Shown here one piece after another: positions 13,742 through 16,587 of a stretch of 64,000 nucleotides of DNA. Below the pieces are notes generated by a model. The model was given only the letters and a program-made list of their open reading frames with translations, was not told the origin of the DNA and did no database searches. This DNA comes from a virus, in IMG/VR virus record IMGVR_UViG_3300036832_001295, positions 21,709 through 85,708 of that record; one strand, 5' to 3'. The position numbers were made by a program, and so were the translations under genes. Each line of letters starts with the position of its first letter. Positions within the stretch are counted from its first letter, which is position 1.

Positions 13742-16587
13742 GGCAGGCAGGGCTTGGCGGGGCATGGTTCGGCGCGGCATGGCACGGTGTGGCAGCCAGG
13801 GCACGGCGCGGCACGGCACGGCCTGGCTCGGCGCGGCAGGCGCGGCGCGGCGCGGCGGGGTCGGGCCCGGCCTGGTGCGGCGAGACATGGCGCGGCGAGG
13901 CAGGCATGGTGTGGCTCGGCCTGGCTCGGCAAGGCAGGGCAGGCACGGCATGGTTGGGCTCGGCGCGGTTGGGCGTCGCAGGGCTTGGCAGGCAGGGCGA
14001 GGTGTGGCGGGTCCAGGCATGGCGCGGCAGGCATGGCCCGGCGCGGCTCGGTACGGCAAGGTGGGGCGTGGCAGGCGGGGTTGGGTTCGGTTTGGCATGG
14101 CGCGGTTGGGCACGGCACGGCTCGGCAGGCGTGGCTTGGCGTGTCGAGGCGGGGCTGGGTTCGCTGGGCCAGGCGGGGCAGGGCAGGCGTGGCTGGGCGG
14201 GTTCCGGCAAGGCAAGGCATGGCCAGGCAGGCACGGCCCGGTTCGGTATGGCACGTCGTGGCCAGACTTGGCTTGGCAGGCGTGGCTTGGTGTGGCACGG
14301 CCGGGTCAGGCACGGTTGGGCGCGGCAGGCTCGGCGAGGCGTGTCATGGCAAGGCTCGGCTAGGTAGGGCACGGCAGCCGAGGCCTGGTGAGGCAGGGCA
14401 ACGCGAGGCATGGCTAGGCCCGGCAGTCGGGGCGTGGCATGACCCGGTGTGGCAGGTCACGGCAAGGCGTGGCGCGGCAGGCACGGCTAGGTCGGGCGCG
14501 GATCGGCGTGGCATGGCGTGGCAGCTAAGGCGCGGCGGGGCACGGCACGGCTGGCTAGGCAAGGCTCGGCCCGGTGCGGCATGGCAGGTCAGGGCAGGCG
14601 TGGCAGGGTGCGGCAGGGTCAGGCGCGGCAGGGCTAGGCGGGGCTTGGCAGGCAAACGTGGTTTAGCTGGGCCCGGCGTGCCGGGGCACGGTGGGGCGTG
14701 GCAGGCAGAGCAAGGCTCGGCTTGGTTCGGCGTGGCATGGCAGGCAGGGCTAGGCAAGGTATGACAAGGCTGGGTGCGGCATGGCGTGGCTGGCATTCGT
14801 GGTTTGGCTGGGCGGGCCGCGGCGGGGCAGGCAAGGCATGGCTTGGCATCGCATGGTGTGGCTCGGCTAGGCGCGGCAGGGCAGGCAGGCGAGGCCGGGC
14901 AGGCAGGGCTGGATTCGGCCGGGCATGGCTTGGCGCGGTTTGGCAGGCAAGGCAGGCATGGTGAGGCACGGCAGGGCACGGCGCGGCTAGGCGCGGCAGG
15001 CGAGGCAGGGCCCGGCTAGTCCAGGTGCGGCGGGTCGCGGCCGGGTTCGGCAGGGCAGGCTCGGTTGGGCTGGGCGGGGCGTGGTTTGGCAAGGCAGGGT
15101 TGGGCACGGCAGGCAGGCAGGGCGTGGTTGGGCTCGGGCGGCTGGGCACGGCAGGGCAGGCACGGCGGGTCCGGGCGAGGCTCGGCAAGGTCCGGCCTGG
15201 CGGGGTAGGGCCTGGCAGGCGAGGCGGGGTGTGGCGGGGCCTGGCGGGTCAAGGCACGTCATGGCGCGGCAGGCATGGCGAGGCAGGGCTTGGTCCGGCA
15301 GGGCACGTCCCGGCTTGGCTTGGCAGGCTCGGCCAGGCGCGGTTGGGCGAGGCATGGCAAGGCAGGGCTCGGCCAGGCAGGCATGGCCCGGCGAGACCCG
15401 GCTCGGCTCGGTGCGGCATGGCGCGGCATGGCAGGCAGGGCGCGGCGCGGCCAGGCGAGGCCGGGCTTGGCTCGGTCCGGCCTGGCGAGGCGAGGCAGGC
15501 ATGGCCCGGTATGGCACGGTGCGGCACGTCCCGGCGTGGTATGGCAGCCGAGGCCCGGCTTAGCGTGGCAGGTCTTGGCGAGGCCTGGTGTGGCACGGCA
15601 AGGCAGGGCGTGGCAGGCATCGCGTGGTGTGGCACGGCCCGGTGGGGCACGGCTTGGCAGGCATCGCACGGCGCGGCATGGCAGGTCGAGGCAAAGCCTG
15701 GCGGGCACGGCAGGCATGGCCCGGTCCGGTTCGGCACCGCACGGCGGGGCATGGCAGGCATGGTTCGGCTTGGCGTGGTGTGGTGGGGCACGGCAGGGCA
15801 CGGCAGGCAGGGCTCGGCGTGGTTCGGCACGGCACGGTGTGGCGTGGCTTGGCGGGCAGGGCTCGGCCGGGTTGGGTACGGCGTGGTCAGGCGAGGCGCG
15901 GCGCGGTGTGGCAGGCAGGGCTCGGTACGGCGGGGCATGGCAGGGTGTGGCTAGGCCCGGCGGGCATGGCATGGCGCGGCAAGTCCAGGCGAGGCGCGGC
16001 GAGGCGTGGCGAGGCGAGGCGAGGCAGGCAAGGCAAGGTCGGGCAGGGCACGGTATGGCCCGGTGTGGTTGGCATGGCGCGGCATGGCAGGCAGGGCGCG
16101 GCAGGCTGGGCTCGGCACGGCTAGGCGCGGCTCGGCAAGGCGTGGTGGGGCAGCCGGGGCTGGGCGAGTTGGGCATGGCCGGGCGCGGCGTGGCAGTCCA
16201 GGCAGGGCAGGACGAGGCAGGGCTAGGCGCGGCTTGGCAGGGCAGGCTTGGCCCGGCGGGGCATGGTTGGGCTAGTCAAGGTCGGGCATGGCAGGCAGGG
16301 CAGGGCTTGGCCCGGCAACGCAGGGCTTGGCCCGGCGCGGCAGGCACGGCAGGGTTAGGCGGGGCGGGGTCCGGCTAGGCCTGGCAGGCAAGGCGGGGCA
16401 GGTCCCGGCTTGGTTGGGCACGGCTCGGCGCGGCAGGCGTGGCAGAGTTCGGCGAGGCTAGGCGTGGCAAGGCCCGGCTAGGCAGCCACGGCGGGGCCTG
16501 GCCAGGCATGGCAAGGTGAGGTGCGGCGCGGCATGGCAGGCGTGGCTTGGCGTGGCACCGTGTGGCCACGCGTGGCACGGCACGGCA
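13742..16587 (+). repeat. GGY-NN pentamer array, block 2 (~56 units plus a few truncated ones, putative guide RNAs)
   Basis: Same grammar as block 1 over 2.85 kb; units of ~7-13 pentamers; no unit seen twice. Confidence 0.9.

What the first reader, a model, noticed from the sequence alone, without database searches (positions are those of the whole stretch)
14128..16289. Guide repertoire appears aimed at conserved motifs of host defence-island genes
At least nine decoded units resemble catalytic or signature motifs of TIR, GHKL ATPase, SNF2 helicase, PLD nuclease, Vsr, metallophosphoesterase (twice), JAB and ThiF/E1 proteins. These families are common in Thoeris, DISARM, RM-associated and CBASS-type loci. 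Inference: a programmable anti-defence library that silences immunity genes through their least mutable codons. Caveat: ~65 units, two orientations and ambiguous residues allow some chance matches, and several of these families also have housekeeping members.
Basis: inference. Interest (0 to 1): 0.92.

Follow-up and report, generated by a model that had tools for sequence, protein, structure and literature searches.

The report
Phage VIPR guides matching defence genes
An uncultured soil phage carries about 60 back-to-back guide RNAs of the recently described VIPR type, and a few of them spell conserved motifs of bacterial anti-phage genes, so the phage may use RNA guidance to switch off immunity, although most guides have no identified target.

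Summary
The stretch lies inside a 3.2-kb, two-part array of GGY-NN pentamers. It belongs to a VIPR system (2026 preprints): a Vipr protein gene at 11295-11942, two small genes, then about 60 guide units of 7-13 pentamers set off by 4-nt AGGC marks (a 'staggered' array).

Against real genomes:
- The Vsr unit matches vsr genes exactly at 12 places, and within 2 mismatches at 55 places in 45 of 151 genomes (control 1).
- The SNF2 unit lies 2 mismatches from motif I of DrmD/BrxH/DpdE-type helicases (22 places in 92 genomes, control 0).
- The TIR unit's near matches fall on the first strand of ThsB-like TIR domains (5 of 11).
- The GHKL unit hits MzaB.

Vsr and SNF2 hits sit side by side in DISARM loci.

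PLD and one phosphoesterase unit found nothing. JAB, ThiF and the other phosphoesterase unit were scanned only in local sets and showed no excess. The other 57 guides show no significant excess in defence neighbourhoods (18 hits against 11.2 ± 4.2).

Verdict: observation partly confirmed, interpretation partly supported. This is a new variant of a known kind. Earlier notes of this scan report similar guide-to-defence matches in other phages.

The parts
11295..11942 (+). vipr gene (215 aa, RAMP/Cas7-like), with TAGGAGG 7 nt upstream
   Evidence: phmmer to PDB 36pp_D 'SUSP1 Vipr protein' E=7e-07. A profile of 20 homologues matches it over nearly full length, E=2.7e-12. AF2 model pLDDT 86.8. Best folds are Cas7/Csm3. 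Start site.
11939..12307 (+). small ORF (122 aa), candidate accessory (vap) gene
   Evidence: GC3 0.88. No family in Pfam or PHROGs. No solved relative.
12304..12759 (+). ORF (151 aa), candidate vap, PHROG 15946
   Evidence: phrog_15946 E=2.9e-22. BLAST relatives lie beside pentamer arrays in L097, L059, L084, L056 and L082.
12854..13250 (+). vrRNA array A, about 8 guide units
   Evidence: Parses.
13289..13738 (+). small gene with a signal-peptide-like N-terminus, lying between the two arrays
   Evidence: Translation and GC3 0.87. No Pfam family.
13745..16594 (+). vrRNA array B, about 52 guide units with 7 or more NN, in staggered layout
   Evidence: Logan contigs agree with 0 differences.
14127..14184 (+). 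guide unit decoding (sense) to the Vsr signature VFVDGCFWHG; one scaffold is 1 nt short
   Evidence: 12 exact places and 55 places within 2 mismatches in 45 of 151 genomes, control 1. Pfam Vsr. 45 exact viral contigs.
15217..15270 (+). guide unit decoding (sense) to D-G-V-G-L-G-[KN]-T-I-A, close to SNF2 motif I
   Evidence: 22 places at 2 mismatches in 17 of 92 genomes, control 0. The genes score as DrmD, BrxHI, DpdE, ZacC or PbeA in PADLOC. The one exact match is in a histidine kinase.
15325..15378 (+). guide unit decoding (antisense) to WDLFISHAWE, the TIR first-strand motif
   Evidence: 5 of 11 near matches lie at position 1-2 of TIR_2 domains of ThsB-like or PDC-S66 proteins.
15379..15432 (+). 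guide unit decoding (antisense) to IAIADDGSG[IM], a GHKL G1-box-like motif
   Evidence: 17/20 in-frame match to MzaB (HATPase_c_3) in L331. The many histidine-kinase near matches are not clearly above chance.
15546..15614 (+). 13-pentamer unit decoding (antisense) to TLFVTSSNLTNGS, PLD-like; no real match found
   Evidence: 0 exact in viral contigs. 0 of 151 genomes within 3 mismatches. The resemblance to a PLD domain is at motif level only.
15805..15853 (+). guide unit with a 17/18 in-frame antisense match to a 766-aa gene beside a PbeA-like helicase in the Gordonia MAG
   Evidence: Null 0.002 for this guide and 0.017 for all 21 nine-pentamer guides. The target protein has no PADLOC family.
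15415..15446 (+). 32-nt exact repeat, with its second copy at 16071-16102; Logan's contig jumps between the copies and skips 656 nt
16584..16609 (.). G+C-rich hairpin at the end of array B, between the array and the convergent gene 16613-16846
   Evidence: RNAfold of 16570-16625 gives -32.6 kcal/mol. The consensus scan does not call it a terminator because there is no T run.

Best explanation
The stretch is the main part of a giant staggered guide-RNA (vrRNA) array of a phage VIPR system. The proposed mechanism has four steps.
1. The array is transcribed with or after vipr and cut at the AGGC marks into RNAs of about 39-69 nt.
2. Vipr protomers bind one GGY each and present the NN pairs.
3. 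The filament pairs with double-stranded DNA, reading two bases and skipping one, so that it reads codon positions 1-2.
4. Binding blocks transcription.

The repertoire is mixed. At least four guides (Vsr, SNF2 motif I, TIR first strand, GHKL/MzaB) are aimed at invariant motif codons of genes that sit in DISARM, Mza, Thoeris-like and restriction-modification-associated loci of Mycobacteriales-type hosts. A single guide could therefore cover many host strains and, in an operon, also shut off the genes downstream. Most of the other guides have targets not present in the data I could search.

Shown here: the anatomy, Vipr homology, and the matches to real genes. Inferred: transcription, processing, binding and silencing.
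For: VIPR identity.
- Vipr homology is supported by sequence and fold.
- The RNA-contact residues named in the structure preprint align to invariant H32, R151, E190, W191 and R192.
- 446 of 487 scaffolds are GGY, and the unit grammar is regular.
- The same layout follows 22 of 29 Vipr homologues in genomes.
- No guide matches the phage's own genome above shuffles.

Targets.
- Vsr guide: 12 exact, in-frame matches.
- SNF2 guide: 22 places at 2 mismatches against 0 control, in DrmD, BrxHI, DpdE, ZacC or PbeA-type helicases.
- TIR guide: 5 of 11 hits on TIR_2 strand A.
- GHKL guide: a hit in MzaB.
- Vsr and SNF2 hits lie next to each other in 3 of 39 genomic and 4 of 45 viral neighbourhoods.
- An unflagged 11-pentamer guide gave 8 scattered hits against 3 control, with no shared motif. 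Recurrent motif hits are therefore not automatic.
Against: - No RNA data exist for this phage, so expression and processing are unshown.
- The SNF2, TIR and GHKL guides never match perfectly (best 18/20, 18/20 and 17/20). How many mismatches this Vipr tolerates is unknown.
- The Vsr unit carries a 1-nt scaffold defect and might be decayed.
- The SNF2 guide's only exact match is a LytS-type kinase motif.
- PLD and one phosphoesterase guide found nothing.
- The 57 other guides are not significantly enriched in defence neighbourhoods, nor are the guides enriched on core chromosome.
- The host is only inferred, from a 60%-identical Vipr on a Gordonia MAG contig.
- Transcriptional silencing cannot remove defence proteins that are already made.
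Confidence: 0.6

Rival explanations
1. The guides do what the published VIPR guides do. They silence competing mobile elements (prophages, satellites, other VIPR carriers) in the same host. The defence-type genes they match (vsr, SNF2 helicase, TIR, GHKL) are cargo of those rivals rather than chromosomal host immunity.
For: - Published natural targets are satellites, prophages and other VIPR systems (Results sections read).
- The Vsr pattern has exact matches on 45 IMG/VR contigs of 7-377 kb. On 4 of them the SNF2 guide hits 650-680 nt away.
- SNF2 hits occur in only 17 of 92 genomes of the genus, so the genes are accessory.
Against: - No guide matched the 39 portal relatives or the roughly 120 other VIPR loci above shuffles.
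- The genomic hits lie in DISARM and Mza loci with no phage genes noticed in the ORFs I annotated. I did not test for prophage borders.
- Silencing a rival's defence cargo would still be counter-defence.
Confidence: 0.22
2. The motif resemblances are chance products of about 120 short, ambiguous decodings. The true targets are unrelated and unknown.
For: - Global tests are null: 603 against 601 ± 39, and 1 of 55 guides with p<=0.05.
- The SNF2 decoding is ambiguous (K or N), and its only exact match is a kinase motif.
- GHKL counts are about what unit-order shuffles of a glycine-rich guide predict.
- PLD and phosphoesterase units found nothing.
- A 12-pentamer guide gave 29 places against 24 control.
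Against: - The Vsr unit gives 12 exact 20-of-20 matches and 55 near matches, against 1 control.
- All 20 long guides together give a null of 0.03 hits within 2 mismatches per 1.6 Mb.
- Five TIR hits fall on one motif in two subfamilies.
- Vsr and SNF2 hits are repeatedly adjacent, which chance does not predict.
Confidence: 0.08
3. The giant array is largely inactive: runaway duplication and decay, or a sponge that soaks up a rival's Vipr protein, rather than a working guide library.
For: - It is about four times longer than any array beside the 29 Vipr homologues in genomes (largest 860 bp).
- Several units are irregular, including the Vsr and JAB units with short scaffolds.
- A 32-nt internal repeat lets an assembler skip 656 nt.
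- A protein gene is inserted between the two arrays.
Against: - 92% of scaffolds keep GGY and 53 units keep the exact 4+5n grammar.
- The guides are all different. The best pairwise identity is 0.81, within the shuffle range of up to 0.86, so the array is not a recent duplication.
- An intact vipr gene with conserved RNA-contact residues lies upstream.
Confidence: 0.07

Closest known systems
VIPR systems with staggered vrRNA arrays (bioRxiv 10.64898/2026.04.26.720920; Results and several Methods sections read, and the legend of fig. S18; the figure and supplementary data could not be seen)
   Same: A Vipr RAMP protein with GGY-NN pentamer repeats. Units abut with a 1-nt register shift. The 1-nt-skip code reads codon positions 1-2. 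The system is carried by a phage and does not target its own genome.
   Different: About 60 guides over 3.2 kb in two blocks, against 4 vrRNAs in SUSP1 and 120-860 bp beside the 29 homologues I fetched. There is no conserved 3' tail or pseudoknot per unit. A secreted-protein gene splits the array. Some guides match defence-type genes, which neither VIPR preprint's main text mentions.
Type II VIPR of Escherichia phage SUSP1 (Vipr structure PDB 36pp; bioRxiv 10.64898/2026.04.26.720927, Results part 1 read)
   Same: Homologous Vipr (profile E=2.7e-12), with H, R and W-R contact residues conserved.
   Different: D177 is E here. There is an 'EKDGE' insertion after WRP. The vrRNAs have 7-13 repeats without a tail. 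The accessory genes differ (no match to solved chains).
Satellite and phage solo vrRNAs that redirect or attack VIPR (bioRxiv 10.64898/2026.10.15.759431; abstract and two sections read)
   Same: Guides exploit codon periodicity of conserved genes so that escape by mutation is hard. Host-genome sites can be targets.
   Different: There the host sites are REP decoys and the targets are satellites or vipr genes. Here the matched host-type genes are immune genes, and the phage has its own vipr.
Protein anti-defence factors of phages (anti-CRISPR, anti-Thoeris, anti-CBASS, Ocr-like; recalled, no call)
   Same: The proposed outcome is the same: neutralising host immunity.
   Different: Those are proteins that act on proteins or signals. 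This would act on the genes, by RNA guidance, and be reprogrammable.

Membership tests
VIPR system | Vipr protein: a minimal RAMP (RRM core, G-loop, thumb) homologous to described Viprs | tested here: met
   phmmer E=7e-07 and profile E=2.7e-12 to PDB 36pp_D SUSP1 Vipr. The AF2 model (pLDDT 86.8) has Cas7/Csm3 as best folds, Foldseek probability 1.00.
VIPR system | RNA-contact residues for GGY (SUSP1 H17, R138, D177, W178, R179) | tested here: met
   They align to H32, R151, E190, W191 and R192. H32, R151, E190 and R192 are invariant and W191 nearly invariant (90% or more) in 20 homologues. D is replaced by E.
VIPR system | Guide RNA genes made of tandem GGY-NN pentamers with hypervariable NN | tested here: met
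   446 of 487 scaffolds are GGY. All 16 NN occur. No two guides are alike beyond chance.
VIPR system | Individual vrRNAs of about 9-16 repeats capped by a conserved 3' tail or pseudoknot (type II) | tested here: not met
   Units have 7-13 repeats and abut directly with a 4-nt AGGC mark and no tail. There is no Rfam or hammerhead match. This fits the 'staggered' variant instead.
VIPR system | Staggered array: neighbouring vrRNAs overlap by 1 nt | tested here: inconclusive
   The -1 register shift at each boundary fits the legend of fig. S18. I could not see the figure, and there is no RNA data.
VIPR system | Adjacent vap accessory gene | tested here: inconclusive
   Two small ORFs follow vipr. 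One (phrog_15946) recurs beside arrays elsewhere. No link to vap1-6 could be tested because the supplements are closed.
VIPR system | Targets obey the 1-nt-skip rule, with the skip on the wobble base | tested here: met
   The Vsr guide has 12 exact in-frame matches. 12 of the 16 hits examined are in frame.
VIPR system | vrRNAs are expressed and bound by Vipr; DNA binding represses transcription | not testable with these tools
   Only the source DNA run holds the locus.
Phage counter-defence (functional class, not a sequence family) | Targets are immune genes of the host | tested here: inconclusive
   Matches lie in DISARM, Mza and ThsB-like genes by PADLOC HMMs. The host is unknown, only one guide matches exactly, and vsr also occurs on viral contigs.

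The most novel reading that the evidence does not exclude
This phage carries a programmable, broad-spectrum counter-defence arsenal. It is a 60-guide VIPR library whose guides are written against the least mutable codons of DISARM, Thoeris-type TIR, Mza and restriction-associated genes. One guide therefore disables a whole family of immune operons across host strains. The array has grown to track the host's pan-immune system, making it an RNA-guided mirror image of CRISPR.
Probability: 0.3. Interest if true: 0.9.

Novelty: new variant of a known kind. Interest (0 to 1): 0.72.

Why it matters
VIPR was described in 2026 as a weapon between mobile elements. If phage guides also silence host immune genes, RNA-guided targeting works in both directions of the phage-host conflict. 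It would also be a counter-defence that can be retargeted by changing a few bases, unlike protein inhibitors.

This locus offers a concrete test set: an exact Vsr guide, and near-exact DrmD, TIR and MzaB guides. It is also an unusually large array for studying how such guides arise and are processed.

Neither VIPR preprint's main text mentions anti-defence or host-gene targets. No paper in the library holds both 'vrRNA' and 'anti-defense'. Supplementary target tables could not be read and might bear on this.

Tried and rejected
- Early readings, before I knew of VIPR. I considered a pentapeptide-coding repeat, a satellite or G-quadruplex tract, a protein-binding array and a Rho-loading site (after). 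I dropped them once the Vipr gene and the preprints explained the anatomy.
- RNA families and signals. Rfam gave nothing relevant. The promoter scan gave 0 sites and the terminator scan nothing at the array ends.
- RNA evidence. No RNA holder is listed.
- Exact scans. The SNF2 unit had 0 matches in viral contigs, 0 in genome contigs and 1 in metagenome contigs, a kinase. The 13-pentamer unit had 0 in viral contigs.
- Local scans. The phage's own genome and 159 loci totalling 1.64 Mb showed nothing above shuffles. Two marginal hits were not followed up: guide 15962 at L095, 20/24, and guide 16435 at L063, 16/18.
- Core chromosome. The unbiased test on 1.6 Mb of one chromosome was null. I later judged it insensitive, because defence genes are accessory.
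- Controls. The tool's 'backwards' control is too lenient for codon-like guides, so I relied on unit-order shuffles where I could.
- Out-of-frame hits. Four hits, in DrmA, DrmD, DrmMI and an unannotated ORF in L337, were out of frame and I set them aside as chance.
- Steps not taken. I did not run complex prediction, the protein-atlas search or the search for homologous proteins. I did not assign the VIPR type (I-VII) because the supplements are closed.
- Correction. My notebook says 13 exact Vsr matches. A recount gives 12.
- Unpublished genome. One of the five TIR hits (handle G307, locus L307) is in a genome marked unpublished. The TIR claim stands on the other four without it.
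Full report
**What is there.** The window is part of an 85.7-kb IMG/VR virus record, 62% complete by CheckV, with about 67% G+C. Its portal is 38% identical to portals of Mycobacterium, Gordonia and Rhodococcus myophages. Between an endolysin gene (10134-11102, minus strand) and the portal gene (17842-20667, minus strand) lie three plus-strand genes, then two blocks of degenerate pentamers. In 13740-16600 there are 450 GGC, most often 5 nt apart (274 gaps), with 56 gaps of 4 nt.

A phase-tracking parse shows a two-level grammar:
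- Units run 39-69 nt, most often 49 nt (20 of 53).
- Each unit is a 4-nt mark followed by 7-13 pentamers of two variable bases plus GGY. The mark is AGGC in 44 of 53 regular units, and its first base is A in 50 of 53.
- 446 of 487 scaffolds are GGY.
- 60 units have 7 or more pentamers (553 NN in all), and 39 of them lie inside the finding's coordinates.
- No two guides are alike beyond chance: best pair 0.81, shuffles up to 0.86.

Logan's independent assembly of the one public run that holds the locus, a soil metagenome that is probably the source, reproduces 11200-17200 with no differences in two pieces. One contig jumps across a 32-nt exact repeat (15415-15446 and 16071-16102) and skips 656 nt.

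**What kind of thing it is.** In low-GC examples it lies between genes on the coding strand.

In those preprints, Vipr is a minimal Cas7-like RAMP. It binds one GGY per protomer and presents the NN pairs. The NN pairs bind double-stranded DNA while skipping every third base, and binding represses transcription. 'Staggered' arrays of vrRNAs overlapping by 1 nt are mentioned in a figure legend.

Evidence that this locus is such a system:
- The gene at 11295-11942 (215 aa, with TAGGAGG upstream) matches the solved SUSP1 Vipr chain, E=7e-07 alone and E=2.7e-12 as a 20-member profile over nearly full length.
- The residues that contact GGY in SUSP1 align to H32, R151, E190 and R192, which are invariant, and W191, which is nearly invariant.
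- An AF2 model (pLDDT 86.8) finds Cas7/Csm3 chains as best folds.
- The closest genomic relative of the Vipr (60% identity) is on a contig of an uncultured Gordonia MAG and is followed by the same punctuated array.
- 22 of 29 genomic homologues carry arrays of 120-860 bp.
- Only 1 of 39 portal relatives has an array near its portal, so the locus is an accessory insertion.
- No guide matches the phage's own genome above shuffles.

This is therefore a VIPR system with an unusually large staggered array.

Its other notes on this genome list them.

My first tests were negative.
- Exact scans for the SNF2-like unit found nothing in IMG/VR or in 185,579 species genomes. They found one place in JGI metagenomes, in frame in a LytS-type histidine kinase, because the AA pair can read K or N.
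- On 1.6 Mb of a chromosome of the Gordonia MAG's genus, the real guides equalled guides with shuffled unit order: 603 against 601 ± 39 hits at 80% or more, and 316 against 290 ± 22 in frame. They exceeded base-shuffled guides in frame (183 ± 40), so only the codon-like make-up of the NN pairs stands out.
- 1 of 55 guides reached p<=0.05.

Guide-by-guide searches of many genomes changed the picture.
- **Vsr unit.** This unit reads through a scaffold that is 1 nt short. It gave 55 places within 2 mismatches in 45 of 151 genomes of the MAG's order, 12 of them exact, against 1 control place. The genes are Pfam Vsr.
- **SNF2 unit.** It gave 9 places within 3 mismatches in the MAG (control 0). It gave 22 places at exactly 2 mismatches in 17 of 92 genomes of the genus, none closer, control 0. 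The genes score as DrmD, BrxHI, DpdE, ZacC or PbeA in PADLOC, with E-values down to 3e-276.
- **TIR unit.** It gave 11 places against 7 control in 301 genomes. Five of the 11 lie on the first strand of TIR_2 domains of ThsB-like or PDC-S66 proteins; one of these five is in an unpublished genome.
- **GHKL unit.** It hit many kinase G1 boxes, in 56 of 92 genomes against 2 control places. A rough scaling from unit-order shuffles of another guide (0.24 hits per 1.6 Mb) predicts a similar number, so the count proves little.
- **Comparators.** A 12-pentamer guide gave 29 places against 24 control. An unflagged 11-pentamer guide gave 8 against 3 with no shared motif.
- **Units that found nothing.** The PLD unit gave 0 of 151 genomes. 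One phosphoesterase unit gave 0 of 61.

**Co-location.** I fetched 60 neighbourhoods of 20 kb (1.16 Mb) around Vsr, SNF2 and TIR hits and scanned all guides locally.
- The SNF2 guide hits 0.7-1.6 kb from the Vsr hit in 3 of 39 Vsr-chosen regions, where the null is 0.05-0.10 per set.
- One of these regions, L336, reads DrmA-DrmB-vsr-DrmD-DrmMI/type IIG, a DISARM locus. L366 holds full-length DrmD and DrmA.
- In the Gordonia MAG contig L331, vsr, MzaC (Z1), DUF4420, MzaB (HATPase_c_3) and a C5 methylase lie together. The GHKL guide hits MzaB in frame at 17/20. I chose that contig partly because I had seen both hits, so its GHKL hit is not independent.
- L370 has vsr, a PLD-SNF2 fusion reading DGVGLGKT, and a RAMA-domain gene within 9 kb.
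- Guide 15805-15853 matches a 766-aa gene beside the MAG's PbeA-like helicase in frame at 17/18. The null is 0.002 for this guide and 0.017 for all 21 nine-pentamer guides.
- The Vsr pattern also has exact matches on 45 IMG/VR contigs. On 4 of them the SNF2 guide hits 650-680 nt away.
- For the 57 guides not used to choose regions, the neighbourhoods give 18 hits against 11.2 ± 4.2, and 7 of 60 shuffles reach 18. In frame the figures are 10 against 6.2 ± 2.6. The core chromosome gives 13 against 16.1. Four of the 16 hits I inspected were out of frame.

**Reading.**
- Shown: a VIPR locus with about 60 distinct guides.
- Shown: one guide that matches vsr genes exactly.
- Shown: three guides that lie 2-3 mismatches from invariant motifs of DrmD-type helicases, ThsB-like TIR proteins and MzaB.
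- Shown: repeated adjacency of the Vsr and SNF2 targets in DISARM-type loci.
- Inferred: these guides direct Vipr to such genes and block their transcription, as counter-defence. A hit inside an operon would also shut off the genes downstream.
- Not shown: expression, processing, mismatch tolerance, the host, and whether the targeted genes sit in chromosomes or in rival elements. The published role of VIPR is conflict between mobile elements, and that reading remains a serious rival.
- Most of the repertoire has no identified target, so calling it 'a defence-gene library' overstates what is shown.

**Novelty.** VIPR itself is in print as preprints. Neither main text mentions anti-defence, DISARM, Thoeris or host genes as targets. 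No paper in the library holds both 'vrRNA' and 'anti-defense'. Earlier AI notes of this scan report similar guide-to-defence matches (CBASS patatin, TIR, hsdM, Druantia) in other phages. I did not test those notes, and they are not independent evidence. I file this as a new variant of a known kind: a very large staggered VIPR array with some guides aimed at defence-type genes.

Noticed in passing
window 13289-13738 (+): A 149-aa gene with a signal-peptide-like N-terminus and high GC3 sits between the two guide arrays. It has no Pfam family. Why a secreted-protein gene lies inside a guide array is unexplained.
   Followed up: partly
window 15415-15446 and 16071-16102: A 32-nt exact repeat lies inside array B. 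Logan's contig of the source run joins across it, skipping 656 nt. The skipped piece is a separate contig of lower depth (5.0 against 8.7). This may be an assembly-graph ambiguity or a real deletion variant in the population.
   Followed up: partly
window 13745-16594: The first NN after each AGGC mark begins with A in 34 of 53 regular units, against about 35% overall. This may be part of a processing or loading signal.
   Followed up: no
L336 (9748-10310), L337 (9793-10506); L390, L410, L414, L417: A vsr gene lies directly beside the SNF2 helicase gene in DISARM-type loci of several Mycobacteriales genomes. The same spacing (about 650-680 nt between the two motifs) recurs on four IMG/VR contigs of diverse G+C.
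   Followed up: partly
window 10134-11102 (-) and 16797-17591 (-): Two lysis-type genes flank the VIPR locus: a GH19-like endolysin, and a protein with a peptidoglycan-binding domain. 38 of 39 portal relatives have no array near the portal, so the VIPR locus looks like an insertion into the lysis-to-portal region.
   Followed up: partly
L095 near 1398 and L063 near 5885: Two guides (15962-16025 at 20/24, 16435-16483 at 16/18) had best matches above all 30 shuffles on other VIPR-carrying viral contigs. I did not look at what is encoded there.
   Followed up: no
L022, L102 and many loci: In unrelated low-GC phages, short GGC-NN arrays sit in intergenic gaps just upstream of ribosome-binding sites, often as two arrays flanking one small gene. 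In L102 that gene looks RAMP-like by eye.
   Followed up: no
window 16584-16609: A strong G+C-rich hairpin (-32.6 kcal/mol for 16570-16625) closes array B where it meets a convergent gene. It has no T run.
   Followed up: partly
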